DNA from: Octopus sinensis
Lineage: Eukaryota
Direction: 5' to 3'
Assembly: GCF_006345805.1 (NCBI RefSeq)
Contig: NC_042998.1
Span: 156,116,001-156,180,000 of the forward strand
Length of the DNA stretch: 64,000 nt
The translations under genes were made by a program, and so were the position numbers. Shown in pieces: positions 2,159 to 53,209 of the stretch (within the stretch, counting starts at the first letter, position 1; every line of letters starts with the position of its first letter). Under the pieces are notes generated by a model that saw only the letters and a list, made by a program, of their open reading frames with translations, searched no databases and was not told the DNA's origin.

Positions 2159-2658
2159 ATATTATTGGTGAATTGAAGAAATGGAGCTGAACGAAGATTG
2201 AACAGAAATCGTTTTATTTCATTCTACACGTGTTTCGAAAGGCACAATTTACCATGGGCTCTTAGGAGCCTAGTTCGATTTGCCATGGGCTCTTAGGAGC
2301 CTAGTTCGACTTGTTTTGCTCCGCCTCTGTTCTGTTTTTGTTTTTTCCAACGGATTTCCTATTTCTTCCTGAAGAGAAAGACACAATATGGTCTCATTAT
2401 TCAATCGGATTTTGGTAAATTGTGCCTTTCGAAACACGTGTAGAATGAAATAAAACGATTTCTGTTCAATCTTCGTTCAGCTCCATTTCTTCAATTCACC
2501 AATAATATTAAAATTCAATTATCCGCACCAACGCACGGTTGCAACACCATATGGTTGTACCTCCAACCGTGCTGTCTTCTGCTGTGATTTTTGCTACCAA
2601 GGTATCGGTTAAACTTTTGATTAATCTGCTACAAGATTATTCATCTTTCTATTTCACA
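2159..2658 (+). mobile_element. Small non-coding hammerhead-bearing element (PLE-pLTR/retrozyme-like) with a 5' inverted duplication, inserted in (TA)n
   Basis: About 96-bp inverted repeat (2159-2254 vs 2413-2508), a 27-bp tandem duplication at the junction (2252-2278/2283-2309), an internal hammerhead, and (TA)n on both sides. Confidence 0.7.
2361..2451 (+). ncRNA. Type-I hammerhead ribozyme, canonical core, palindromic helix III
   Basis: ATTTCTTC-CTGAAGA(2369-2375)-helix II GAAAGACACAAT...ATTGTGCCTTTC-GAAA(2431)-CACGTG-TA^-GAATGAAAT. Helix I pairs with one bulge; predicted cut after A2442. Confidence 0.8.
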
Positions 2659-2764
2659 TAATATATATATATATATATATATAATACATTAATAAATAAA
2701 ATAAAACATATGCATATATATAAACATATATGTACGTACCTACCTCTACATGTACATATACACG

Positions 2765-3180
2765 CATATATGAGTACAGGACACCAAAAGGACGTCGAAC
2801 ACAATGAGAAACGAAAACATAGACACAAACCAAAGGAACTGGACATTTTTTTTAAAAACAGCAAAAAAAAAAATAGAGTACAGGACAATTAACACAAAGA
2901 AAAAAACCCTTCTTCAGTCGCTAAAGGTTTCATCTACTCTACGTTTCGAGGGGTAAAAGCGAGACGTATCTTCGACAAGAAACTTTCCTTCCTGCGAAAA
3001 GCAAATCAATTAAAATTCTGAGATCTTTTCGCAGAGGGGTAAAAAATGGTAGCAAAAACAGGACAGTAACGACAGTGCAAATTATAAACAGTAAAAGACA
3101 GGACAATGAAATACAAGATAAGAAAGGCTGTTAACGCCGAACGAAAAAAAGTATTGCGAACGCAGAATTTTTTATGAACG
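2765..3180 (-). mobile_element. Probable PLE-pLTR-like repeat with degenerate hammerhead-like motifs
   Basis: The minus strand reads GTTTC-TTGTCGA-A-GA...TC-GAAACGTA...GAAAC (2927-2983) followed by CTGAAGAAGGG (2907-2917); flanked by TA-rich tracts. Confidence 0.4.
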
Positions 3181-3237
3181 ACATACATATATATATATAC
3201 ATATAAATTTCTATTTGTATATATACGTATATACAAA

Positions 3238-3850
3238 GGCACGTTTTCATTCCGTTTATAAAGCGAATCACGGGTGGAAATGCGATCCAAAAGGTTCTTC
3301 TCACTCAACTCATGTGGTACCCAAACATCGTAGCGATTTGTGTACCCAAGCTTTACCAGGTGCTCATGAACGACGGATTTTGATAGGCTGAGGCTTTCTG
3401 CCAATTCTCGGGTTGTGCAATGTGGGTTATTCTCAATTAATGACTTGATTTGGTCATCATCTGTAGTGGATGGTCTGCCTGATCGCTCTTTATCAATAAG
3501 GCTACAATCTCCAGCTCGGACCCTTGCGATCCACTTCCGTACAGTTCTTTCGGATAAAGAAACATCACCGAAAACTGCGCATATTTCTTTGGTTGCTTGT
3601 GTGGCATTTATCCCTTAACAGAAAAAGAAGAGCATCAAGTGCCGAAAATGAACTTTCTTATCTTCCATTTTAAAGGGTTACAGAATTAACGCAGGTTATA
3701 GGAACATAAACCTTCTTCCACGAAAAGATAGATTAAACTGTACTCTAAATGAAGGTGTAGTCAAATCCTATTTTATGGACTCAACCATGTTCTAAAATAA
3801 GTCGAAAGGTAAGCTACTATAAATCGGCACGAACTTTCCGGACAACCCAA
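3238..3850 (-). mobile_element. Mariner transposon, 5' half (TIR + HTH region of transposase pseudogene)
   Basis: TIR TTGGGTTGTCCGGAAAGTTCGTGCCGATTT (3850-3821) next to TA. From ATG at 3668 it reads MEDKKVHFRHLMLF..*..RSGRPSTTDDDQIKSLIENNP..TTRELA..WVPHEL, truncated shortly after the mariner WVPHEL linker. Confidence 0.9.
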
Positions 3851-4383: not shown

Positions 4384-5106
4384 CTTGTTTTATTTATATT
4401 TCCTGAGCGCCATACTAATACAATTGTTTGTTTGTTTTCCACCTGCCTCGTCTTTTGTCTATTTTCATAAAGCTTCCCGTTATATATTACGCGCTCACGT
4501 GGTCTCACTTTCATCCTATATTCTACCAATACCACTATCAACACTTAATCTACCTTGGATTTTCTTTACCTCTTGGATACTTACCATTGGCTGCACCTCT
4601 CTTTCGCGGATCAAAGTGACTATGTTATTGATGTGAAATCCTTAAAAAATATACCACGACGTCTATACATTTCTAACCTTGAACTCTCAACCTTGAACTT
4701 GTTCGCATAAACTGTCCCGTTTGTTGTATTTTTATTTTCTCATATATTACCACTTTTTTACATTCATTTCATGCTTTCCACATTTTCCTGCATTTTTGTT
4801 CTCCTTTCCGTCTTTCTTCGCTCTCTGGATGTCCATACTCTGTTTCCTCTGCCTGCACCCCCTTTTTTGCCTCCCTCTCTCTCTGCTTCCCTTCTTTCTT
4901 TCCCTTTTCCGTTTGCCCCGTCTTTTCCGCCTTTATTTTCTGCTCCTATCGCTTACTTATCTAGTTTTTTCACGATTATTTTTTTTGTTCTTTTTTTTTC
5001 GAACGTTTGTTTTTCCCCTTTTCTTTCGCTATCCTTTTTTATCTATTTTTTTCATACGATAATTTTTTGTTTTTTCGAACGTTTGTTTTTTTCCCGCTAT
5101 CCCATC

Positions 5107-7969
5107 ATGTCGGATCCTAGGTCCTACCTCCTCACCCTCCATCATCGTGTGAAGGATCATCTCCGTCCACTTCCCGTAAACTGCCTTCAGCCGTCCGTTA
5201 ATCTCTCTCTACTTCTTTTTTAAAAAACCCGCTTCTCTAGCCATGTCTCTTTCCTAAGCCGCTGCCTACATCACCGACTCATCCCTAAAGGTTTCCGCCT
5301 CCACTTCCACACTGCTCTCCACTCGGATTCTTCCATCTTACCCATACTCCGCACCACATCTTACCGCCTTATGCGGGCCACCATTCGCTCCAATCTCTCT
5401 AAACTACATACCATCAACCGCCTTCTTCCTCCTGCTTTCTCCACATTCTTCTCCTCTCTGCCGCCTCTCTATGCTCCAAACACGATACGCTTCATTATCC
5501 ATTTGAATCACCTCTTCCATCAATTTCTTTTCGATACCAAACTTCGTAAACTCCAATCACTCCTCCATTCCACCATACCCGACGCCACTACCCCAACTCC
5601 TCCACTACCCTTCTCCCCTCCCGATAGGCTCCATCCACCCACACCTAACCCCACTGCCCCTCCCTACAACCCCTTCTCCCCTCCTGATAGGCTCCATCCA
5701 CCTACACCTAACCCTACTGCCCCCCCAACCACCCCCACACACCTCCCCAATCCCTCCCCCTCAGACCTCCACGAGACCTACCACCCCTCCTACTTCTATT
5801 CCACCCCCCTCTCCACTTCCGTCTGTTGTTACCATTCCCCCCGATCTTCCCCTCTCTGCGGCTGAACGCTCCGTCCTTAGTAGGGGTCTGCGTTTCATCC
5901 CCCTCACTCCATCCTGTAAGGAATTCCAGACGCGAGTTGATGTCCACAGCTTTGTGCGCCGCGTCCGGTTGGGTGCGCATTACCACGACTCACCACCCAC
6001 ACCCAACGAAGAGGACTGCTTCACGGGCCTGGGCCGCCGACCATCCCCGTGGACGCCTGCCCCTGGCCAGTTCCTAGCAGTGGATCTTTTCGCGGGCGCT
6101 TGTCAGCGTGCATTGGAGAGGTTCAACTTCTCCAGGCGCCAACGCCGCCTCAACATCTCCCCGGCTGAGGTCTTGGCTCTTCGTTCCCTCCAACGGCGCG
6201 CTGACATTATCATCAAACCGCTTGACAAGGGTGGAGCTGTAGTGGTGTGGCGCGCGGACCTCTATAGGGCCGAGGCTTTCCGCCAACTCAATGACACCTC
6301 CTTCTACTCCCCTCTGCCCTCTAACCCGACACGTAGCTACCAACAGACGGTATCCTCTACTGTCCGCGACCTCATCTCGTCCTCCCGTCTCCCCCACACC
6401 GCATCCAACCTAATTGTGCGAACCCCACGTACCCCCACCATTTACTTCCACCCCAAAATCCACAAACCCAACAACCCTGGCCGCCCCATCGTCTCCGCCT
6501 GTAACTGCCCCACGGAGCTCATCTCTAAATACCTCGACCGTGTCCTTGCCCCCCTAGTGGCATCTCTTCCCTCCCACATCCACGATACCAACCATGCTCT
6601 CCGGCTTTTCAACTCTTTCTCCTTTCCTCCCGGCTCCTCCAAAATCCTTTTTACTACGGACATCCAAAGCCTCTATACTGTTATCCCTCACCACGAAGGA
6701 CTGCAGGCCCTTCGACACTTTCTTGACCTCCGCTCCAACCCTGAACCTGACACCTCCACACTCATTCGTCTGGCCGAACTTGTCCTTACTCTGAACTGCT
6801 TCTCGTTCGCGGGCGAGTTCTACCATCAGGTCTCGGGAGTGGGCCCCAACTATGCGAACCTGTTCGTTGGCTATGTTGAGGCCCAAATATTCTCTAATTT
6901 CACTGGTCCCACTCCTGAACTATATGGTCGTTACATTGACGACATTATCGGTGCCACCTCACTCTCCCGTGAACATCTAGATTCCTTCCTCTCTTTCGTC
7001 CAATCTTTCCATCCAGCCCTCCACTTCACTTCCACTATCTCCAACACCTCTGTCTCCTTCCTCAACATTTCGGTTAGCATTCTTCACTCCACTCTTACCA
7101 CCTCCATTCACTACAAACACACAGACTCACACTCATACCTCAACTTCTCTTCCTCCCACCCAGAACACACCAAGCTTTCCATCCCCTATTCCCAATTCCT
7201 CCGTCTACGTAGGCTCTGTAGTGACGACCATGACTTTGAGACTCAGTCTCAACGTATGGCTCACAACTTCACCCTACGTGGATACCCCCTCACCACTATC
7301 CACACCGCCCTTGCCAGAGCACGGTCCGTGGACCGTGTATCTGCCCTCTCTCCCCGAACCCGCCCTGTAGTCTCCCGCCTCCCTTTTCCCCTCACTTACC
7401 ACCCCACGACCCTACCTCTCCAACGCACCATTCTTCGAGCTTTCCGTCATCTCCAGTCCGACCCGTCCACTTCACACCTCTTCCCTAACCGACTCCTCCC
7501 TTCTTTCAAACGAGCCCACAACCTTCGAGACCTTTTGGTCCATAGCTCCTTCCCTGACCCTACCTCCCAACCCGGCTCGTTCCCCTGCTCCCGCCCACGT
7601 TGCCGCACTTGCCCTTACCTCTCCAACACCACCCTCCTCACTAGCACCCATCATTGACCCTATCGCATCATCAAGTCCTTCACCTGCACCTCCAGCAATA
7701 TTATCTATTGCGTCTCTTGCTCTCTCTGCCATTCCTTGTACATCGGACAAACGGGACGCCGCTTGGCTGACCGGTTCGCAGAACACCTTCGTGACATCCA
7801 CCTTGCGAACGACACACCGGTCTCACGCCATTTCCGCTCCACCGGTCACTCCTTGCAACACCTGTCTGTGTTCGGTTTGTCCTTACACAGAGGCCATCCG
7901 GATTCCCGTTTGCGCCGTGAACAGGAATTAATCTTCTCTCTTCGCTCTTATACGCCATTTGGTCTCAAC
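5107..7969 (+). pseudogene. PLE reverse transcriptase / GIY-YIG endonuclease polyprotein, disrupted
   Basis: N-terminal HVSFLSRCLHHRLIPKGF; RT motifs DKGGAVVVW, PKIHKPNNPGRPIVS, DIQSLYTVIP, RYIDD; Cys linker CSRPRCRTC; NIIYCVSCSLCHSLYIGQTGRRLADRFAEH...GLN. Lesions: stops at 5221 and 7655, frameshifts near 5800-5950, and a missing AMGTxM segment in RT motif B at about 6840. Confidence 0.93.
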
Positions 7970-8618
7970 TCTCCCCCCTCCTCATCTAACCCCCCTCTCC
8001 CCCTCCTCACATACTTCCCCCCCGACCCCTACTTCTCTTCAGTCCTTCATCCTTTCACCCCTACTCCCCTTCCCTTCTTCCCTCTTTCTCCCTCCCTCCT
8101 TCCCTCTTCCCCTTCCCTCTTCCACTTCCCTCTTCCCCTTCCCTCTTCCCCTTCCCTCTGCTCCCTCACTCCCCTTCTCTCTCCCCCTCTCCCTCTTTCC
8201 TCCTCCTCCTCCCCCTTCCTCCCCTCCTCCCCTCTTCTCCCCCTTCCCCTCCCCTCTTCTCCTCTCTCCACACTACACCACACGACTTTACACATCACAT
8301 CATATATGATGTGCCATACTAATACATACACCAACTAATACATACTAATACATACTAATACATACTAATACATACACCAACCCTATACATACACACGTCC
8401 AGACCTCTCATACGCACTAATACTCTCTCATACACACACACACACACACACACCCTTATGTTGGAGTAGGTCATTCAACCCTATTATCTCCCCTAATTTC
8501 GCTCTCGCGTCTCATGTTTGATCTTTGACTTCTGGCCGAAATCAGATCGCCATGTTGATTCGTTAGTTACTGCACGCATTTTTTTCTCTCCTTCTTTCTG
8601 TGTTTTTTTTTCTGTGTA

Positions 8619-8656
8619 TCTTTCTGTTGAAGAGCGTAGGCTCGAAACGTTAAAGA
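8619..8656 (+). ncRNA. Minimal hammerhead-like motif (U6 core variant) in the 3' pLTR
   Basis: Identical to 4346-4383, 4273 bp downstream. Confidence 0.6.
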
Positions 8657-8740
8657 CTTGTTTTATTTATATTTCCTGAGCGCCATACTAATACAATTGT
8701 TTGTTTGTTTTCCACCTGCCTTCGTCTTTTGTCTATTTTC

Positions 8741-8772
<32 letters not shown>

Positions 8773-10091
8773 ATATACATATATATATGTGTATATATAC
8801 GCATATATATGTGTGTATATATACATATATTGGCCTGCTCGCTTAGCCCGCGGGGTGGCGTCATTGAAGGCTAAAACAATGCGAAGCGCATTGTGACCAG
8901 CGATGTGTAGCAACATCTGATATCTATATTTATATATAGATATATGTATTGTGTATACATATGTATGTATATATATATATATATATACATGTATATATAT
9001 ATGTATATATATATAAAGATGTATACATACATATATATGTATGCAATTTTCTAGATGGTGTAATTTAATTGTTCATTTTGAATTGATAAAAGATGTTTTT
9101 TTCTAATATTTTATGTATATGTATGTATATATATATATATATAATAATATATATATATATATATAATATATATATATATAGTAGTATAAATATCAACACA
9201 CTTATTTCTCCTTCTTCCTCTCTTCCCTTCTCCAAACTCACAGACACCCCCATACACACACACACACACACACACCTCCACAAAACAATCATTAAAAGAA
9301 TTCTTCTCTAAACCCAAAAATCCATTTGACCATCTCTCATTCAACACACACACTCTCACTGACAAGGATTAAAAGAAATAAAATTTATGGTCTACCTCCC
9401 CGCCACCACACACTCAATAACACTATGAAATGGTCAAAACTGAAATTCTTTTCCCCAAGATTTTAGACCCCCCCCTTGGAGTAAGTATCCCGTCGTGCAG
9501 AGCAAAAAATTCTTTTCTTCTTCTTCCCTCTCCTTTCCCCTCTTTTTCTTTAGCACACATTCCAAATACAAAAACACACACACACACGCACACACACACA
9601 CACACACATACACACATGCTCTCTCTCTCTCACTTTCTCCTCATACATCACCCTCTTGTACTGTCTTATATTCCTCCCCACCACTACAAACTCAATACCA
9701 CTATGAAATGGTCAAAACTTTTCACACAGGAACTTAGTTTGATTTGAAAACCCCACTAGAATGGGAGAAAGCGCTAATACACGATCTAAGTTTTATGATG
9801 TATAAAAACATGTAATATACAAATAATTATCTGTAAATATAAACCATCCGATTTTCTGAGTACCTCATTTCTTCTAATATAAAATACCTGTACATCATCT
9901 CCAAACCTTCCAATATATATACGTATATATATATACATGTGCATATACATGTATATATATATGTATATAAATGTATATTTATGCATCTTTGAATATACAT
10001 GTTTATATATATATGTATATATATATATATACATATGTATATACATCTATATATATGTATATATGTAAGTGTATATATATATGAGTATATA

Positions 10092-11347: not shown

Positions 11348-13288
11348 GGCGCAGGCGTGGCTGTGTGATAAGACGCATTATTCTTCCGAATCACATGGTC
11401 CCAGCTTCAGTCTCACTGGGCAAGAGTCTTTCACTATAACCTCGGGCCGATCAAAGCCTTGTGAGTGGATTTAGTAGAGGGAAAGTGAAAGAAGCCCGTC
11501 GTATAAATATATATATATTCCAACACTTCCGTCGCCTTTCTCGACATTTTGGTCAACATACACCACTCCACTCTCACTACCTCCATCCACTAAAAACACA
11601 TCTACTCACAGTCATATCTCAGCCTCTTCTCCCATCCTACCCACATCCAAGGGTGGAGTGTTGGGATGGGAGGGTGGAGTGTGGGTTTGGGGTGAGGATG
11701 TGAGGGTAAGGGTGGTTATGTAGAAGTGGGATGTGTGGGGTGGGGTGGTGGGGGTGGACTGTGTAGTGAGAACTGAAGAGAGGAAGTAGGTATCAGGGCA
11801 AGAGAGTAGAGGTGGGTAGGAGTTAAGCGAGGAAGTAGGTGTGAGATGAAGAGAGGAGAGAGGAGGGGATTCAGAGGAAGAGGGAGTGGATTTGAGCCCA
11901 TATGGTGCAAAGTATCGAAGGAAGAAGATTAATCCTTGTTTACGGCGAAGTTGGGAGTCCGGATGTTCCCTGTGTTAAGGCAATCCAAACACAGACATGT
12001 GTTGTAATGAATGACCGGTAGAATGGAAATGATGCGAGACCGAGGTGTCATTGCCGAGTCTAATGTCTCTAACCCGTCAGCCAAGCGGTGTCCCATTTGA
12101 CCGATGTACATAGAATGACAGAAAGAGCAGATGCAGTAAATGACGTTGCTAGAAGTGCATATAAAGGAGTCAGTGATATGTTAGGAACGATGATGGGTGT
12201 CTGTGAGGATGGTGGTGTTGGACAGGTTGGGGCAAATGCGGCAGCGTGGGCGGGAGCAGGGAAACGATCCAGATTGGGAGGTGGGGTTAGGGAAGAAACT
12301 GTGAACCAAGAGGTCACGTAGGTGGGCTCGTTTGAAGGAGGAGAAGGGTAGGTTGGGGAAGCTGTGTGAAGTAGAAGGGTCGGACTAGAGTTGCCGGAAG
12401 GATCGGAGAATGGTGCGTTGGAGAGGTAGGGTGGAGGGGTGGTAGTTGAGGGGAAACGGGAGACGGGTAACGGCAGGGCGGGTGCAGGGAGAGAGAGAGC
12501 AGAAGCACGGTCCACGGAATATCCACGAAGAATGAAGTGGTGAGCCATGAGTTGAGACTGAGTCTCAAAGTCATGGTTGTCACTGCAGAGCCTGCGCAGA
12601 CGGAGGAATTGGGAGTAGGGGATGGAGAGCTTGGTGTGGGTAGGGTGGGTGGAGAGGTTGAGATATGACTGTGAGTAGATGTGTTTTTAGTGGATGGAGG
12701 TAGTGAGAGTGGAGTGGTGTATGTTGACCAAAATGTCGAGAAAGGCGACGGAAGTGTTGTAAAAGGTGCAGCAGAATTCGAGGGCAGGATGGAAAATTGG
12801 ACAAAAGAGAGGAAGGACAACTCACAGTCATATCTCAACCTCTCCTCCCACCCTACCCACACCAAGCTCTCCATCCCCTACTCCCAATTCCTCCGTCTGC
12901 GCAGGCTCTGCAGTGACAACCATGACCTTGAGACTTAACCTCAACTCATGGCTCACCACTTCATTCTTCGTGGATATCCCCTCACCACCAGAGAACGTTC
13001 TGTGGACCGTGCTTCTGCTCTCTCTCCCTGCACCCGCCCCGCCGTTACCCGTCATCAATAAACGACCGTGTGTATGACTTTCTGTCTTCTCCCTATCACC
13101 GCTTGACAACCAGTGTTGGTGTTTACGTCCCCGTAAACTACCGGTTCGGCAAAATGAGACCGATAGATCAAGTACTAGGCTTTAAGAAATCGATCCTGGG
13201 GTCAATTTGTTCGACTAAATCCCTTTGAGACGGTGCTCCAGCATGGCCACAGTCAAATGACTGAAATAGTAGAAGAATTACAGAATAA
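11348..13288 (+). mobile_element. SINE family A split by a PLE insertion in its internal TA tract
   Basis: Head at 11348-11517 (ggcgcaggcgtggctgtgtg...gaaagaagcccgtcgtata); tail at 13065-13288 (cttgacaaccag...ggtgctccagcatggccacagtcaaatgactgaaa). Confidence 0.85.
11518..13055 (-). mobile_element. Rearranged Neptune-type PLE fragment (RT thumb to GIY-YIG on minus, flanked by inverted duplicates)
   Basis: Minus 12822-11646 encodes the RT thumb, Cys linker and YIGQMGHRLAD. Plus-strand pieces 11518-11645 and 12820-13055 (SQSYLNLSSHPTHTKLSIPYSQFLRLRRLCSD) are inverted copies of its 5' part. Homologous to 6980-7970. Confidence 0.88.
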
Positions 13289-18851: not shown

Positions 18852-19014
18852 TATATATTTAATTTAAAAATGAATTAAAAAAATGAAATATCATCACTTA
18901 CATGGAAAAATTGAAATATTATCTTTCAGTATTTTACAAGTTAAAATCTTAAATTATTAATTGACACATTATTGATTATCTTATAAAAACAATGCCTGGA
19001 AAAATCATGGATTA

Positions 19015-19499
19015 CATGGAAAAATGCGAACATGAAAAGTCATATTCCTAAGATTATAAACCGGGAAAAGTACAGGACAAGTTATTACACCTGTAAAAGT
19101 ATAGGACAAGCTATTACTTCTAGTAAAGTAAAGAATAAGAATATTTTTACTTAAAATATTGCAGCTAAAATTAAAATATGAATATAAAAACTTATTTTAT
19201 TATAGTTTACAAATAACACTATACTTATTTAAGTAGAATTTGGCTAATTTACTACCTTAAATATAGAAAAAAGTGACGAATTAGACAAACTTACAAAAAG
19301 ATGAGAACTGTAAAAAGCGATAAATTAGAAGAACTGGCATTCTTTGCTGCAATATTTTAAGTAAATAAGAAGTTTCTTATTCTTTACTTTACTAGAAGTG
19401 ATAGCTTGTCCTATACTTTTACAGGTGTAATAACTTGTCTTGTACTTTTCCAGGTTTTAATCTTAAGAATATGATTTTTCATGCTTGCATTTTTCCATG
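19015..19499. mobile_element. MITE with about 155-bp TIRs, TA flanks
   Basis: CATGGAAAAATGC...ATATTGCAGC (19015-19165) is the reverse complement of 19345-19499 (...GCATTTTTCCATG); TA on both sides. Confidence 0.85.
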
Positions 19500-19934
19500 T
19501 AATATAGATATATACGTACGTGAGTGTGTATGTGTATGTGTGTGTGAGTGTGTGTGTGTGTGTGCGTGTGTGTGTGTGTGTGCGTGTGTGATAAGTTTCA
19601 TGTCGAAAACGAGTAATGAGGACAGAAACAACTCTAACAAGTTTGACGTAAGAAGAGGGCAACGTTCAAACAAAAACCCGTTGAACTGGAAAGTCATAAA
19701 GTACAAACATAGGAATGGCACACACACAAACACACAGTCCACAGATAAAAATCTTACGACATAGTTAATTTGTTTTCATTATTTACAATTTTTCTATGTA
19801 CAGATAAACATTTTTTACAATACAGCAATCCCTCGAATATCGCGGGTGTTTCCCCACCCCCACACACACGATAAGAGAAAATCCACAAAGCAGAAATAGT
19901 ACTGTACAGTATATTTTTATATTTTCATAATTTG

Positions 19935-26529: not shown

Positions 26530-27110
26530 GCACAGTTTCTAAACAGTTTCAAATTAGAATCCTCTGACTTCAATGTACTTGTAGTACTCTATCCACTTCA
26601 AGAAGGCCCTATGGAAGTCCTCCAGAGTGAAGGTGTTCAAACCCTTGTCACAGCCTCTATTATCTTCAAAACGACTGCCACTGAGGTTCTCTTGCTAGTC
26701 ACAGGAAGCATGGTCTGGACTGTAGGGAGGGTGAGGGACACTTTTGATGCCCATCTTTGTCAAGTAGATGATTACTTGAATGCTTGTCACTAAGTACTCT
26801 GGGAATAAACTGTGCACAAATTTTGCGCATTTTCAGATGTACACGAATAATTCTATGTACAGTTGCCTCACCAACTCTAAACTGTATGCATATTGTCTTT
26901 ATAGATATACGACGGTCTTCAACCAAACAGTTGCGAATTTTCTCAACCAACTGCGATGTTCCGATGTCCCTCTCCTTCCCATCTCTCTCATCATCTCTCA
27001 CTTACTTTCTTGGCAAAGCAGCTTATTAGATATCTAGTAATTACAATAGTCCTGGACATTTATAACTGCCTCTCCTAAAAGTTTCAGAAAGCTTCTGGAA
27101 TGCACCCTGT
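26530..27110 (-). mobile_element. Mariner-family transposase relic with an internal deletion
   Basis: VEKIRNCLVEDRRISIKTI...TVHRII...LKMRKICAQFIPRVLS joined to YLTKMGIKSVPHPPYSPDHA (YSPDL-type motif). Confidence 0.85.
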
Positions 27111-29639: not shown

Positions 29640-31704
29640 TAACAATGCATAAAGAAATAGATATTCGTTGTCAATAATTAAACTTACGTCAGAAATTTTG
29701 TAAAAATTTTTGTTTATCATAATTATTTCATTGTCTGTTACTAAATTTAGAGTGCTAATTCCAAAAATGTTAACCGTTTCAGAAGAATTAAACTATAGTG
29801 AATAGCTGCTTCAAATACCTATGTAAAATCAGTTTTCAATTTCACTTTATTTTATAGAGTTGGAAATCTTATCATTGTATAATATGTTAAGTAGTGAAGA
29901 CAAAACTTCACCAGACATCTTCTGTTATGCTAACAGTTGTTGCTATGTTAAAATCCAGCAGGTATCATAAAGTTGTGAAAGGTGCCGAAATCTGGACAGT
30001 GCACTTTGGAATGTTATTGGTGATCAAAGCAAGCCTTAGGCCCTACATGTAATATGTAAATGCTGTTAATTTAACTCTTTGCTATTTCCAGAATATGAAG
30101 AAACTCGAAGAATAACTACACGAACTCTTATTTTTGTATATTACATGTTACAATGTATATTAAGTTTAAGCAAAAGGATGATCTTCATTGTACAACTCAA
30201 AGAAAGGAATTCAATAGGATAAGATTAATAGAAGATTGCTGGACTACAATGCACCAGTAAAAGGCATGCAGAATTTAAAAGTTGTTAGTGAAGACCTGTG
30301 TTTCTGAAAAGATAAATTAGTTAAGTTAAGTTAATTTTTTGGCTCAAAAAGCAAAAAGCAAGGCCATGTAGGGGAACATGGAGTTACGTACAGGGTGGTG
30401 TTCATGCAAAGAGTTCAGGCCATTTGTGGTCAAGGGAGACTTTGAACCGAGCGGTCGTCGGCATCTTCACTATCTCGTCCGGCAGCTTATTCCACGGATC
30501 CGCAACCCGGACGGAGAAAGCCTCTCTCCTTCGATTGAGATGAAATCGTCGTAGACAGAGCTTTTCGGAATGACCCCGCAGCCGACGCTCTGGAGCAGGA
30601 GTGAAGAACAACTCTTTCGAGAGGTCACACTTTCCGCTTATGATGTTGTGAGCAAGAATGAGATCACCACGGCGTCGTCGTTTTTCTAGAGAATAAAGGT
30701 CGAGCGTCTTCAGCCTTTCTTCATAAGACAAATGCTTGAGATCAAGAACCATGCGGGTAGCCAGCTTCTGGACTCTTTCGAGATGATGTATGTCTTTGAG
30801 GAGATAAGGAGAAGAGGCTTGAATCCCGTTCTCCAGTATGGGTCTCACCAGCGTGACATAGAGCGGTAGGAATATGGCTGCTGTGAGCATTCCGAATGAC
30901 CGTCGAATCAAAAACACAACTCCGCGTGCTTTGTTGGCAGCATGGACGCACTGGGCCGAAGGCGAAAAGGAAGAATCCACCAAGATACCCAGGTCCTTTA
31001 CCTGGTCGGTCCTCTCCAGCAGCAGACGGTGGAGGCATCGACGAAGATATCTATATCACCGCGAGGAGCGACCAGTTTGACATCATCGGCAAATAGAAGG
31101 GTGTGTTGCGTGAGGTCGTCGGGCAAGTCATTTATGAAGACTAAGAACAATAAGGGCCCAAGCATTGAACCTTGAGGCACGCCACTGCTCGCACTGGAGA
31201 CGTCGGACAGCGAACCATTAACTTGGACTTGGAAGGAGCGATCTGAGAGGAAGGCACCAACCCATCGTACAATATCCGGATGGAAACTATATGCTTGAAG
31301 CTTGACAAGTAATAGGCGGTGGTTAACCGAGTCAAAAGCTTTGGTAAAGTCCAATAAAACGATGTCAACAGCATCACCATCATCGAGGATACGCGTCACC
31401 AATTCTTTGCTTACTGTTCTTGGACTGAAGCATGACTATGTTGAATGAGAACTTTTTCATAGACAATTCAATTTCAAAAACTGCTTTGAAGCAGTTTTAC
31501 TTCACTAAGTAGATATCAATTTTTACCTTTTGGACATTCGGTAGAAATGAAAAAGCCATGAAGATGTTAAACGGTGAGTTGCCAAATTCAAGAATAAAGA
31601 ATGTAAGTTATATGTGAGGAAGGTTTTCAAGCAGCTTGCCTTTATGCTTTATCAGGTGTATATACATGTTATACATCTTTTTTGTTTTGTTTATAGAATA
31701 GTAG
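29640..31704 (+). mobile_element. Chapaev3-like transposase relic interrupted by a CR1-like LINE
   Basis: PDIFCY (29910), IGDQSKP*ALHVICKCC (30015-30066), then after the LINE LFID.., LKAVLLH (31485) and FCL*NSR (31683-31704). Boundaries are approximate. Confidence 0.65.
30317..31410 (-). mobile_element. CR1-like LINE, 5'-truncated RT/3' fragment
   Basis: LLDFTKAFDSVNH, SGVPQGSMLGPLLFLVFINDL, LFADDVKL, LERVQKLATRMV...SYEERL...RRRRGDLI; the 3' tail is (ACTTA)n. An internal deletion/frameshift separates the two ORFs. Confidence 0.93.
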
Positions 31705-37194: not shown

Positions 37195-38176
37195 ATGTAT
37201 GTATGTATAAGTTCACTTTGTAATCACGTAATTTCAGTGTGCTCGCGCGCGAGTGTGTGGTCGGGAGGAGAAGCAGTTATGGGTGCTTCAGAGGAATTTA
37301 GATTGTTAAAAGAGAAAGAAAGAAAAAGAGAGAAAGAGAGAAGGCAGGGAGAAAGACAGAGAGTGAGGGAGAGGGAGAGGGAGAAAGAGAGAGAGCGCAA
37401 ACTATAGTAAGTGAGCAACAGCAACCGAGATCAAGAAAAGAAAATTAATATTGCAGGCATGGTAAATTTGAGAGAGAGAAAAGAGAAATCCGGAAAACAG
37501 AGTAATAAATAAAGAAGAAAAGAAAGCAATTGAAATGAATGAATGAATGAATGAATACGTGAATGAATGAATGATTGAATGAATGAATGATTAAAGAAAG
37601 TAAACGATGAAAGTATATAATGTCTATTGTAGGAAACGGTATTTTCCATGAATTCGATAGTATTTTCCAGTTCTGACGCTAGTCAGTCATCAATGACGTA
37701 TTTTCATTGGAAAACACGTCAATCGGAATCTCTATGTAAGTGGGGTCAGGTGACTTAATCAATGCAGTCATAACAAACGTAGATAGTTAATATTGATTGT
37801 TATTTATTCTAAAGGCAAAACCACATTAAATAGTTTTCTCTGATATCTGTTTATTTATATGTTTTGTTTTATCTTTGTTGGTATCGCCTAAAATGATGAA
37901 TTTATGCTATAGAAGTAGACTTTTATTCCATTTAAGCATTCTACATTTTCCAGTTTAAAGTTTGTTAGTAGTTTCTTTTTTGTGTTTGCTACAAAGCCCA
38001 TGCAGGGGAAAAAAGTAAATGCATTTTCCTGCTTAGGCTTTCGTGGTCGGATTTATTTCTGATGACAATTCTTTTATGTTTTGATTCCCCACCCCACCCC
38101 GCCAATATGCACACATAAACCCGATGTGGTCACAAATGTGTACGTATGTTCTTATATGCATATTAATGTGTAAAAA

Positions 38177-38450
38177 ATATTCTGTTGTGTCTGGGGAGAG
38201 TCATTCTCTTTTAGTGCCTTATTATTTAACACACTCACCGGTAAAATTTCCACTTATTTCTTACTTTTTCTAAAATTTTCGTTGCGTCTTGCAACCTTTT
38301 CAATAGTCTTGAAATTTTACCGGTGAGTGTGTTAAATAATAAGGCACTAAAAGAGAATGACTCTCCCCAGACACAACAGAATATGCTTCAACACACGAAC
38401 TCATATAAAGAATCTTGCAAACCAAATCCAAAAACGAAGCGTAAAAAAAT
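38177..38450. mobile_element. Fold-back non-coding element: perfect 74-bp inverted repeat with a hammerhead-like motif in the spacer
   Basis: 38177-38250 is the exact reverse complement of 38311-38384; 60-bp spacer. Confidence 0.8.
38270..38306 (-). ncRNA. Minimal hammerhead ribozyme, U3-A8 core variant
   Basis: Minus strand: CTA-TTGAAAA-G-GTTGC AAGAC GCAAC-GAA-AATT-T^-TAG. Compensatory U3-A8 pair and palindromic helix III; helix I is only 3 bp and lies close to the inversion junction. Confidence 0.6.
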
Positions 38451-38827
38451 ATATTATTTAACAAAATAAGGAATATATGTGGATAAGTTTGGAATAAGGG
38501 TTCGTAAGAGGTGATTTGCGACAGTACAGAACGAAAAAAGTAAAATAGACCAGCAACAATTGATGGTGTTTCAAGGAATTCTTTTAAAGAACGGGGAAGA
38601 GTGAATTTTAGCCCGATTAACCGGATGGTTTTGTTGTGAAGAGAAGATCAAGTTTAATGATAATATACTATTTGCATCTATCTAGTACTTTCGGCATGAA
38701 AATAATATAGATTTTGATATAAACAAATTAAAACGGTTGAAAGACTGTATGCACGTGCAATGGAAACTAATAATATGATTGTAAATAATTTTAATGAACT
38801 GCTTGCATACATTTAAATGTTTCTTAC

Positions 38828-38927
38828 CAGAGAAATCTTTCATGCCAGTAAAGTTGGAACCGGTTGGATCAAACCAGTACCTGTCGTGCAGATACTGGTT
38901 CTTCCCCATGAACAAGAATCCCTTCGA
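38828..38927 (-). CDS. Candidate internal exon (phase 0 to 1): SKGFLFMGKNQYLHDRYWFDPTGSNFTGMKDFS(G)
   Basis: tctctgactttAG acceptor, TG|GTAAGA donor, GC content above the flanks, single open frame. Confidence 0.45.
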
Positions 38928-39259
38928 CTAAAGTCAGAGATTATATATTGTCTAAATTTTAGACTATAAATAATCTTTGAGTTTAGATTCTAAAATGATG
39001 ACGGACACTGGTATTTACTACCTTTTTCATTGTAAGGTTTACTTCTTTCCTGCTGTTATTCATTCATTCACTTCCTTTTCCTTTGTGAGTTGGATTGTTT
39101 CTCTTTTCGTTCACCAGAAGCTAGGGTTAAGTGATATTCAAGGTTAAGCATTAGACGAAAATTAAAATTAAATATTCTCCATTGTAGGAGGAATGATTTC
39201 ATCGTTCACTCTTAAGGAAGGTGTAAAATAGGAGAAATAACACAATAATAGACGAATGA

Positions 39260-50118: not shown

Positions 50119-50292
50119 TAATTCTCCATCTTTGTTTCTCTCTCCTTTCTCTCTCACTTTCCCCACTCTCTTACTCTTCCTTTCTCTCGGACTCTCCCTC
50201 GCTTTCTCTTACTCTCTATCTTTATCTATCTCTCTCCCATTTATAAACAACAAAAGATCTTGAGTAAGTTGAGGAATGAAATATTTAGAAAG

Positions 50293-53209
50293 ATCAATCA
50301 TGGAGGAGTTGCTATGTACATCCGTGAGGACCTCACACCCCAGGTCCTCTTGTCATACTCAAACTCGGTGTGTGACACACTAATTGTACATATAAGGCAA
50401 CTTGATGTAGTTGTGTGTGCTACATATCGCCCTCCAGATGCCCCAAGCCATGTGGGCAAGTTTGAAGACTGCCTTATAAAAATAGAAGAAGTTCTAATCA
50501 CATTAGAACAACACATAAGTGTACTTCTTATGGGAGACTTCAATCTACCCAATGTCAGATGGCCAGAGGGCCTTTCTCTCCCAGGAATGACAAGATGTGA
50601 ACGAGGACAGGCGAGGTCCCTCCTGAACCTCATCAACACCCTGTACATGGAGCAAGTAATACTCCAACCAACCAGGGCAGGTAACACACTGGATCTCTGC
50701 TTCACAAATGACATGGATCTCATCCATAATGTGAAAGTGACACCGACACTACTCTCGGATCACAACATGGTAGAGCTGACCATGTACGGGCCAAAAGAAA
50801 GCACGGACATGCAGCCTACAAGAAACCCTCAGAATCTTTCCAGCTTGAACTACCATAAGGCAAACTGGAAACAAATTGAGAAAGAGATCCTCAAACAAAA
50901 CTGGCCTAAACGTCTCTCCTCGCCAGACATCGACGTGAAACTTCAACAATTCATGTCTGTAATGCAAGCCATATGCTACAAATGTGTCCCAGAGAGAAAG
51001 GCCACTGTACACAAGAACAAAATCCCCAGAGAGAGGAAAATTTTAATGAGACGGCGTACAAAAATTTCAAATCGCCTAAACAAACAGATTGAAAGCAGTG
51101 AAAAGTCCCGCCTAAAAATAAAACTGTTAGAAATTGAAAAATGTCTGCAACTCTCCCATGAAAAGGAAAGAGCAGACAAAGAAGCCTGGGCTATAGACAA
51201 CATAAAATCTAACCCCAGAGCTTTCTACAGGTATGCCAAAGAAACAGCTACGGTGCACTGTAGAATAGGGCCACTCCTTGAAAAGGATGGCACACTTACA
51301 GGAAAACCAATGAGGGTAAGTGAAATACTGAATGAGCAATTCAAGAGTGTTTTCACTCCACCCCTTGGGCATCTCCAAATCACCAATCCAACTGACTTCT
51401 TTACCACTGCAGATATAAAATCAGAGGCGGCGACGATAGATTACATCGATATAAAGGAAGACGATGTAATCAAGGCTATAGATGAAATGAAAACAGACTC
51501 AGCTACTGGCCCCGATGGATTCCCGGCAATCCTCCTAAAAGCATGTAAGAGAGTCCTAGCAAGACCACTGCAGTTCCTCTTTCAGAGCTTCCTTGCAGCT
51601 GGCAAACTTCCAAGAAAACTGAAGGAAGGTAAAATATGCCCCATTCATAAAGGAGGTAGCAGAGCGGAGGCCAAGAACTAAAGACCTATCTCTCTGACCT
51701 CACACATCAGCAAGGTCATGGAACGAATAGTCAGAAGGAAACTGATCACCTTCCTTGAAGAAAATGACTTGCTGCCCGACACCCAACATGGTTTCCGACC
51801 AGGGAGAAGCTGTTTTACTCAGCTCCTACAACACTATGACTGGGTGCTGAAACGGCTGCTCAACCACTCAAATGTGGAAGTGATATATCTCGACTTTGCA
51901 AAGGCCTTTGATAAAGTCGATCATGGAATGATATGTCACAAACTGCGTGATCTCAACATAGTTGGAAAACTGGGAGAATGGCTTCATGACTTTCTGAAAG
52001 ATAGAAGTCAGGCGGTAGTAGCCAATGGGGCCACTTCCATTAACACGCAAATAGTGAGCGGTGTTCCGCAGGGAACTGTTCTGGGACCACTACTGTTCAT
52101 AATGGCCCTCTCAGACATGCCCTCAGCCACGCAGAGAGCCACGATCACAAGTTATGCAGATGATACAAAAGTTTCACAGGCAATACAGAACCCTGAGGAC
52201 ACTAAACGCCTGCAATGTGAGCTGGACAAAATATACAAGTGGGCTGAAAAAAATAGCATGCAGTTCAATGCTGAAAAGTTTCAAGCTTTATACTATCAGC
52301 ATGCAAAACTAAATGCAATACCCAATGAATACACTGGACCCGGAGGAATAGCAATCCCAGAGGCACAATCAGTGCGTGACCTGGGTATTTACATGAGTGA
52401 TGACGCCACCTTTCATGTACATGTTGCTAAATTGGCAATGAAATGTAGACGACTGGCCGGATGGATTCTCAGAACCTTTAGAACAAGAGAACAAGAAACC
52501 ATGATGGTCCTCTGGAGGACACTTGTCCTAAGCCACTTTGACTATTGCTCTCAGTTATGGTCACCATCCAGTGTCAAGTTGATCACGGAGCTCGAGGCGA
52601 TCCAGCGTAGCTACACGAAGAAGATAGCCTCTATGCAGAATGTAAGCTACTGGGAAAGACTCAAGGGATTAAAACTATATTCCTTAGAGCGTAGGCGGGA
52701 AAGATAAGCCATAATATACATCTGGAAGATCCTGGAGGGACGTGTCCCAAACTTTGGCATCGAGAGTTACACAAATGCCAGAACTGGGCGCCACTGCGTG
52801 GTGCCTAGGACTCCAAATTTGCCATCAAGATGTAGGACAAGATACTGTGATAGCCTGGGCTTCCGAGGCCCACAGCTCTTCAATATCCTCCCGAAGAACC
52901 TGAGAGACCTGCATGGGGTGGATGCAGATGTCTTTAAAATGAAACTGGATCTCTTCCTGTCGGGTGTCCCAGATGAACCAACTTCACGGCAGGAGGTGCA
53001 GATGAGGGCAGCTGCATCGAACTCTCTCATACACCAAATGGCAGTTGCTAAAAAGCTTTTGTGAAGTAAAACCATGTAGCAACACCAAATGGCAGTTGCT
53101 AAAAAGCTTTCGTGAAGTAAAACCAAGTAGCAACACCAAATGGTGGTGCCCCAGCATGGCCACAGCTCATGAGCTGAAACTAGAATCAATCAATCAATCA
53201 ATCAATCAT
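50293..53209 (+). mobile_element. 5'-truncated CR1/L2-group LINE (APE endonuclease + RT)
   Basis: HGGVAMYI, YRPP, MGDFN, TLDLCF, SDH; GPDG, N*RPISLTS, QHGFR, YLDFAKAFDKVDH, SGVPQGTVLGP, SYADDTK; (TCAA)n tail; ATCAATCAT at both ends. Confidence 0.96.
50299..53064 (+). pseudogene. LINE ORF2 (endonuclease-RT) in one frame with two in-frame TAA stops
   Basis: ORFs starting at 50260, 51718 and 52798 share one frame; stops at 51679-51681 and 52705-52707. Confidence 0.93.

What the first reader, a model, noticed from the sequence alone, without database searches (positions are those of the whole stretch)
38177..38450. U3-A8 variant hammerhead inside a perfect 74-bp fold-back
Seen: minus strand CTA-UUGAAAA-G-GUUGC/GCAAC-GAA-AAUU-U-UAG, where both core positions 3 and 8 are changed together. 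Established: positions 3 and 8 pair in the active fold and U3-A8 is a tolerated natural variant that CUGANGA-only searches miss. The perfect arms suggest a recent insertion. Helix I is only 3 bp in this copy, possibly shortened by the inversion junction.
Basis: partly seen in the sequence, partly recalled or inferred. Interest (0 to 1): 0.72.

Follow-up and report, generated by a model that had tools for sequence, protein, structure and literature searches.

The report
Penelope retroelement scar with variant hammerhead
This is a back-to-back pair of short fragments from a very abundant repeat family in an animal genome, likely left by a Penelope-type jumping gene, and it carries a predicted self-cutting RNA motif whose U3-A8 core, short first helix and fold-back layout have all been described before for such elements.

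Summary
The arms (38177-38250, 38311-38384) are 100% complementary over 74 nt, and a U3-A8 minimal type I hammerhead motif lies on the minus strand at 38306-38270 (0 of 300 shuffled windows gave one). Public contigs show that the stretch belongs to a very high-copy family. The insertion runs 38177-38438: a 5'-truncated copy with the hammerhead, joined head-to-head to a shorter inverted copy with a 54-nt tail, between 10-bp target duplications (9 of 10 alike). Head-to-head copies, a tail, a short duplication and AT-rich targets are the published signature of Penelope-like elements. U3-A8 minimal hammerheads with 3-bp helix I are also published for them (about 1,300 in Schistosoma). Helix I is natively 3 bp, because the junction lies 6 nt upstream of it. 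The insertion is not brand new: its right junction is shared with another organism label. U3 is fixed in the family, so 3/8 covariation cannot be seen. No partner RT/endonuclease gene was found and cleavage is untested. This lone copy is likely inert. Verdict: new member of a known kind, low interest.

The parts
38168..38177 (+). Left target-site duplication (10 nt; last base is shared with the arm)
   Evidence: 9 of 10 identical to 38439-38448; chance about 0.002 in two simulations
38177..38312 (-). Longer 5'-truncated copy: hammerhead, A-rich linker, 74-nt arm; ends at the family's first 3' end (equivalent to 38384)
   Evidence: Opposite-strand joints 38261/38265 to 38311 in other copies show hammerhead and arm are contiguous in the family; native sequence runs on beyond 38312
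38270..38306 (-). Minimal type I hammerhead motif, U3-A8 core, 3-bp helix I, 5-bp helix II, palindromic AAUU in place of helix III; predicted scissile bond between 38273 and 38272
   Evidence: same architecture as published PLE min-HHRs
38177..38250 (+). Left arm of the fold-back (3' part of the left copy, read on minus)
38311..38312 (.). Head-to-head junction with 2-nt microhomology
   Evidence: Loose ends begin behind 38312 for hammerhead-side contigs and before 38311 for arm-side contigs
38311..38384 (+). Right arm (5' part of the shorter, inverted copy)
   Evidence: 77 contigs of run X7 leave the family sequence behind 38384
38385..38438 (+). 54-nt tail, present on the right copy only; ends at the family's second 3' end
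   Evidence: Loose ends behind 38438 in 42, 146 and 229 contigs of three runs; summed depth falls from over 1e5 to under 20 between 38444 and 38485 in two DNA runs
38439..38448 (+). Right target-site duplication
   Evidence: junction crossed by one contig of organism D (table 8, record 24)

Best explanation
The stretch 38177-38438 is two 5'-truncated copies of one high-copy repeat joined head-to-head between 10-bp target duplications, likely written in one event by the reverse transcriptase and GIY-YIG endonuclease of a Penelope-like element, and the longer copy carries that family's U3-A8 minimal hammerhead motif, predicted to cut weakly and only as a dimer. Steps. (1) Shown: an AT-rich site is duplicated; a staggered endonuclease cut is inferred. 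(2) Shown: the family has two 3' ends 54 nt apart and the two copies use one each; inferred from Frangieh 2024: these are two internal reverse-transcription start sites, giving the tail. (3) Shown: both copies stop early and join through 2 nt of microhomology, so the 74-bp fold-back is the part common to both copies. (4) Inferred: the template was uncleaved or re-ligated RNA, because the left copy is continuous across the scissile bond. (5) Inferred: this lone copy is inert, with no partner hammerhead nearby and, if transcribed through, held in the loop of a 74-bp hairpin. Whether the parent is an autonomous element or an ORF-less derivative moved in trans is open (my estimate about 65:35).
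For: High copy: 3,160, 9,156 and 10,831 contigs laid in three runs; summed depth peaks at 6e5-8e5 against 5.7-14.9 in the flank in two DNA runs; this is not a copy number, but even divided by 31 it is about 1,800-3,600 times the flank. Depth is highest near the 3' ends. Two 3' ends at 38384 and 38438 are followed by (TA)n or AT-rich letters of low agreement (0.44-0.6). At least 8 listed joints of the same head-to-head kind have variable right-hand starts (for example 38307/38362, 38308/38382, 38312/38407, 38313/38405). TSD 9 of 10. Both arms carry the window allele at 38338, 38348 and 38355, where 40-69% of family depth has another letter, which fits one template. Published matches: inverted pLTRs, 8-10-bp TSDs and a tail on one end (PMC3846280; Craig 2021); tail equals the distance between two RT starts, AT-rich targets, uncleaved RNA as the main substrate (PMC11167929); U3-A8 min-HHR, extra base after A9, palindromic 15.2-16.2 (PMC4209133); S. 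mansoni(4) has U3-A8 with 3-bp helix I and is PLE-associated. In organism E, A15.2 is G in 25% of depth, which keeps a G-U pair in the palindrome.
Against: No RT or endonuclease sequence is linked to this family. The window's own Penelope-like ORF does not match it. Searches with the arm/tail peptides found nothing credible, and the family variants do not single out a reading frame. The tail is 54 nt against 30-40 bp in the papers read. The hammerhead is not significantly more conserved than the rest in the rows shown (1 of 37 against 14 of 147 positions, Fisher p 0.31; 19 rows were hidden). The lowest-energy dimer uses an 8-bp palindrome that buries A13, A14, U17 and U1.1 (-15.6 kcal/mol against -5.4 for the double hammerhead, core contacts not scored). 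No stable stem-loop is predicted at the two 3' ends (z -0.15 and 0.71), unlike the AC-rich stem-loop in the lizard element. Raw-read run X22 laid 0 reads, which is unexplained and which the tool marks as no test.
Confidence: 0.88

Rival explanations
1. The family is a non-LTR retrozyme: a tandem, ORF-less unit that is cut into monomers by its hammerhead, circularised and reinserted; this locus is a broken remnant.
For: No partner ORF found. Family sequence is present in a run guessed to be RNA (X15). Retrozymes are proposed to derive from pLTRs (bioRxiv 10.64898/2026.07.22.740005).
Against: No tandem copy at this locus. Loose ends after the 3' ends are heterogeneous AT-rich letters, not a return to the unit's start. 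Retrozyme hammerheads are described as canonical, while minimal ones go with PLEs (PMC7229834 passages).
Confidence: 0.06
2. A MITE or fold-back DNA transposon with 74-bp terminal inverted repeats that happens to enclose a hammerhead.
For: Perfect 74-bp inverted repeat around a short non-coding core; a target duplication exists.
Against: The duplication lies outside a 54-nt tail on one side, not against the arm. Other copies have variable inner junctions, and hammerhead and arm are co-oriented in the family.
Confidence: 0.03
3. The fold-back is an assembly artefact or a later local inversion, or the motif is a chance match.
For: No listed contig or read spans the central junction; X22 laid 0 reads. 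Rfam does not score the motif.
Against: 0 of 300 shuffles give the motif. Seven runs hold 0.86-0.96 of the words. TSD, tail and like junctions at other loci would not arise from an artefact.
Confidence: 0.03

Closest known systems
Minimal hammerheads (min-HHR) of metazoan Penelope-like elements, notably the U3-A8 family of Schistosoma mansoni Cercyon elements (Cervera & De la Pena 2014, PMC4209133)
   Same: Type I, U3-A8 core, extra base after A9, G10.1-C11.1, palindromic 15.2-16.2, 3-bp helix I, U17, AU-rich flanks, mostly single dispersed motifs.
   Different: Other host and sequence family; the extra base is G (consensus H, but G occurs in the Nasonia row); U3 appears fixed in this family.
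Inverted-pLTR insertions of EN+ Penelope-like elements (Adineta Pen2/Pen2a/Pen3a, PMC3846280; Craig et al. 2021)
   Same: Head-to-head 5'-truncated copies, tail on one end, TSD of 8-10 bp, microhomology at a 5' junction; microsatellite targets as in Naiads.
   Different: Only about 260 bp with no ORF; tail 54 nt rather than 30-40 bp; no palindrome noticed at the inverted junction; clade unknown.
PAc, Poseidon of Anolis carolinensis (Frangieh et al. 2024, PMC11167929)
   Same: Hammerhead roughly 85-100 nt upstream of the first 3' end, second 3' end further on, AT-rich targets, uncleaved template.
   Different: PAc has a C3-G8 core overlapping the ORF start and a stem-loop at the RT start; here no frame or stem-loop was confirmed.
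Non-LTR retrozymes (Cervera & de la Pena 2020, PMC7229834; Li et al. 2026 preprint)
   Same: ORF-less, type I hammerhead, high copy number, likely dependent on PLE enzymes.
   Different: No tandem array here; minimal rather than canonical hammerhead; inverted pair and tail.

Membership tests
Metazoan PLE minimal hammerhead | Conserved core with a 3-8 pair, GAAA and UH | tested here: met
   U3-A8 core at 38303-38297, GAAA at 38280-38277, U16.1-U17
Metazoan PLE minimal hammerhead | G10.1-C11.1 closing a stable helix II, with one extra base after A9 | tested here: met
   5-bp helix II present in MFE and centroid folds; extra G at 38296
Metazoan PLE minimal hammerhead | Palindromic 15.1-16.1 segment instead of helix III | tested here: met
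   AAUU; an A15.2G variant in 25% of depth in organism E keeps G-U pairing
Metazoan PLE minimal hammerhead | Short helix I with AU-rich flanks | tested here: met
   3 bp, native in the family; published consensus row shows 3 nt per side
Metazoan PLE minimal hammerhead | Covariation or excess conservation across copies | tested here: inconclusive
   No U3C at 3% or more in three runs; p 0.31 for excess conservation on the shown rows; 19 rows hidden
Metazoan PLE minimal hammerhead | Self-cleavage as a dimer | not testable with these tools
   Needs an assay; a competing 8-bp dimer is predicted
EN+ Penelope-like element | Linked RT and GIY-YIG ORF | tested here: inconclusive
   Absent from this short insertion; partner not found; no host genome held
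EN+ Penelope-like element | Inverted 5'-truncated copy joined head-to-head | tested here: met
   (joints, loose ends)
EN+ Penelope-like element | Tail on one end only (two 3' ends) | tested here: met
   Ends at 38384 and 38438; 54 nt, longer than the 30-40 bp reported
EN+ Penelope-like element | Short TSD and AT-rich or microsatellite targets | tested here: met
   10-bp TSD, 9 of 10; (TA)n or AT-rich loose ends
EN+ Penelope-like element | pLTR contains the start of the ORF | tested here: inconclusive
   ATG at 38357 opens 27 codons to the tail end, but synonymous changes are 2 of 7 in that frame and 3 of 7 in another; no homologue found
Non-LTR retrozyme | Head-to-tail tandem units, each with a hammerhead | tested here: not met
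   Single hammerhead in the window; heterogeneous loose ends behind 38438; other loci not inspected one by one
Non-LTR retrozyme | Circular RNA form | not testable with these tools
   Only contigs of a run guessed to be RNA were laid
MITE | Terminal inverted repeats at both element ends with the TSD directly outside | tested here: not met
   54-nt tail between right arm and right TSD; variable junctions at other loci

The most novel reading that the evidence does not exclude
An ORF-less, pLTR-only family of thousands of copies with a fixed U3-A8 hammerhead and an unusually long 54-nt tail, whose head-to-head junctions cluster just upstream of the ribozyme (listed joints at 38302-38313). The ribozyme fold, not its cleavage, would then mark where reverse transcription stops and the inverted copy is joined, giving a genome-scale natural test of what Penelope hammerheads are for. 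The clustering may be an artefact of the stretch laid, which cannot show junctions further upstream.
Probability: 0.12. Interest if true: 0.5.

Novelty: new member of a known kind. Interest (0 to 1): 0.17.

Why it matters
It adds one more host and family to the known Penelope-like hammerheads and is a clean textbook insertion (TSD, inverted pair, tail). My searches found no description of such hammerheads in cephalopods: hammerhead+Penelope+octopus gave 5 papers, 4 listed; hammerhead ribozyme+cephalopod gave 4 papers, 2 listed. The 2026 Octopus vulgaris repeat annotation has 0 mentions of hammerhead in its text and supplement. The host being a cephalopod is only my impression, and Lunse et al. 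(RNA Biol) could not be read. The family's size would make it useful for mapping RT start sites and 5' junctions against the ribozyme. None of this would surprise a specialist.

Tried and rejected
Own-genome search: none held. Rfam gave no hammerhead; the MIR2599 hits (51 bits against a gathering score of 120) only reflect the hairpin. The metagenome pattern scan gave 18 loci; none of 18 has helix I or the family's flanks, they read like chance matches in microbial DNA, and they include mixed 3/8 states, so all were dropped. An arm motif was absent from prokaryote genomes and viral contigs. Partner ORF: phmmer with the 34-aa ATG frame gave 1 hit at E 9.5e-4 to an unrelated repetitive protein; word searches in two frames gave none; the Atlas gave only unnamed clusters under 0.9; these negatives are weak. 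The coding-frame test on family variants was uninformative. An extended helix I was rejected; a tandem G-A pair next to the helix is possible in the copies with G at 38269 on minus but has no closing pair. A neighbouring candidate exon (38927-38828, minus) could not be confirmed, so I make no claim that the locus is intronic. Earlier scan notes: nothing by sequence, place or relatives; 8 of 358 word hits were shown, all from other genomes, and none bore on this locus. Lunse et al. was not held.

Full report
Observation. The fold-back is real: arms 38177-38250 and 38311-38384, 74 nt, 100% complementary, 60 nt apart. The minus strand of the spacer holds a complete minimal type I hammerhead at 38306-38270 with U3 at 38303 and A8 at 38298. 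It was the only hit of my first descriptor in the window; the strict form occurred in 0 of 150 shuffles and the loose U3-A8 form 0.027 times per shuffle. A broader descriptor gave 2 real hits and 0 in 300 shuffles. Rfam scored no hammerhead. The window is a microsatellite-rich animal sequence full of retroelements. It looks like octopus DNA to me from recall; I did not test that.

Family evidence. No host genome was held, so I used public runs. Of 24 runs listed, 20 hold part of 38100-38700 and 7 hold 0.86-0.96 of its words, under four organism labels. I laid 4 of them on 38225-38824. The raw-read run X22 laid 0 reads, which the tool marks as no test and which I cannot explain. The three contig sets laid 3,160 (X15, RNA by guess), 9,156 (X14, organism E) and 10,831 (X7, organism D) records. 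Summed depth is about 5e4-8e5 over 38225-38444 and falls to 5.7-14.9 in most of the flank in the two DNA runs. This is not a copy number, but the peak is still about 1,800-3,600 times the flank after dividing by 31, so I infer at least a thousand copies. Only the best-supported rows were shown (19 variant rows, 116 joints, 614 loose ends and 23,608 pieces hidden).

Anatomy. Family sequence ends behind 38438 in 42, 146 and 229 contigs, and behind 38384 in 77 contigs of X7, each time running into (TA)n or AT-rich letters of low agreement. So the family has two 3' ends 54 nt apart. Opposite-strand joints from 38261 and 38265 to 38311 show that in the family the hammerhead is followed, in the same direction, by the arm. 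The locus is therefore a left copy on the minus strand (38312 to 38177: hammerhead, linker, arm, first 3' end) joined head-to-head, through 2 nt of microhomology, to a right copy on the plus strand (38311-38438: arm plus tail). At least 8 listed joints show the same arrangement at other loci with different right-hand starts. The flanks carry a 10-bp duplication, 38168-38177 and 38439-38448, 9 of 10 alike, chance about 0.002.

Helix I. Family contigs agree with the window through 38312 in X15 and X7 (20 and 68 contigs) and through 38308 in X14 (92 contigs) before they continue into native upstream sequence. The junction thus lies 6 nt upstream of helix I, and the next native positions are purine-purine, so helix I is natively 3 bp.

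Positions 3 and 8. U3C would be A>G at 38303. X15 and X7 list no A>G change at 3% or more, and both A>G places of X14 lie in the flank, so U3 is fixed among copies at least 80% alike. A8G (T>C at 38298) is absent in X15 by accounting, since both its T>C places are explained. It cannot be excluded in X14 or X7 because of hidden rows. Covariation cannot be seen within the family. The only shown variant inside the motif is A15.2G (25% of depth in organism E), which keeps the palindrome paired by G-U. Excess conservation of the motif is not significant (1 of 37 against 14 of 147, p 0.31).

Age. Both arms carry the window allele at three positions where 40-69% of family depth differs, which fits one template, though conversion between the arms is possible. 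The insertion is young on an evolutionary scale but shared between labels.

Mechanism. Arkhipova 2013 (PMC3846280, passages) describes inverted pLTRs, 8-10-bp TSDs and a tail on one end. Craig 2021 (bioRxiv, 12 of 17 passages) describes an adjacent inverted 5'-truncated copy and a 30-40-bp tail. Frangieh 2024 (PMC11167929, parts 1-2 of 4) shows cleavage of AT-rich DNA, two internal RT starts that define the tail, a protein-assisted hammerhead, and uncleaved RNA as the main substrate. I infer the same here: a staggered cut, two cDNAs from the two starts, early stops and a microhomology join. The left copy is continuous across the scissile bond, so its template was uncleaved or re-ligated. The ribozyme is predicted to need a dimer. 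The lowest-energy dimer is an off-pathway 8-bp palindrome, and U17 is, from recall, the weakest cleavable triplet, so activity is likely low. This copy has no partner nearby and would sit in the loop of a very stable hairpin, so it is likely inert. X15 has no depth in the flank, so nothing shows that this locus is transcribed.

Comparison with what is known. Cervera & De la Pena 2014 (PMC4209133; parts 1-2 of 4 of the text and parts 1-2 of 3 of the supplement) report U3-A8 in PLE min-HHRs, about 1,300 hits in S. mansoni. They also report the extra base after A9, the palindrome and low dimer activity. Their alignment has a PLE-associated U3-A8 row with 3-bp helix I and U17, and an oyster row with the same AAUU palindrome. 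Perreault 2011 (PMC3088659, section 8) reports natural U3-A8 and earlier in vitro activity. I also saw passages of PMC7229834, PMC8969392, PMC6765202 and PMC13282606 with its supplement search (Penelope-like 6.83% of O. vulgaris, 190 families), and part 1 of 5 of the 2026 retrozyme preprint. Lunse et al. I saw only as a citation. It works like a PLE insertion and meets every structural test of a PLE min-HHR. Membership of a named PLE clade is untested because no RT or endonuclease was linked. The 54-nt tail is the one departure from the published figures.

Verdict. New member of a known kind; interest 0.17. The most novel reading left open is an ORF-less family whose inversion junctions are set by the ribozyme fold (probability 0.12).

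Noticed in passing
window 2159-2659: Second perfect fold-back (arms 2159-2254 and 2413-2508, 96 nt, 158 apart) between (TA)n runs. It has a C3-G8 hammerhead-like motif on the plus strand (C3 at 2369, ending near 2445) with a long interrupted helix II, a loop of about 30 nt, palindromic helix III and 3-bp helix I; a 31-nt tandem duplication lies in the spacer. Likely another head-to-head Penelope-type insertion of a different family.
   Followed up: partly
window 5224-8000 (+): Near full-length Penelope-like ORF with in-frame stops: weak RVT_1 (E 0.001) and GIY-YIG (E 0.016) matches and a cysteine linker. No hammerhead was found within 4500-9200 by a relaxed scan, and it has no DNA match to the finding.
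   Followed up: partly
window 11518-13053: Fragments related to that ORF (64-79% amino-acid identity) in inverted arrangement, with 96% complementary arms 12516-12676/12820-12980 and 11518-11645/12635-12762: a third inverted Penelope-type insertion.
   Followed up: partly
window 38928-38986: 59-nt imperfect palindrome (85% self-complementary) about 490 nt right of the insertion.
   Followed up: no
window 38828-38927 (-): Candidate 100-nt exon with AG and GTAAG borders and an open 33-codon frame; no match in Pfam, PDB, Atlas or the protein search.
   Followed up: partly
window about 19005-19500: AT-rich element with long imperfect terminal inverted repeats (perfect core 19076-19114/19401-19439), MITE-like.
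   Followed up: no
window 38322-38329 (+) and its mirror in the left arm: The arm holds a consensus-like splice donor (G|GTGAGT); many family copies have an ATG about 15 nt upstream of it (loose ends before 38311). It could be an intron of the parent element; untested.
   Followed up: no
window 3006-3614 (-), 26699-27001 (-), 30402-31435 (-), 50122-53064 (+): Frames that read like mariner transposase remnants and LINE endonuclease/RT remnants (names from recall, not scanned).
   Followed up: no
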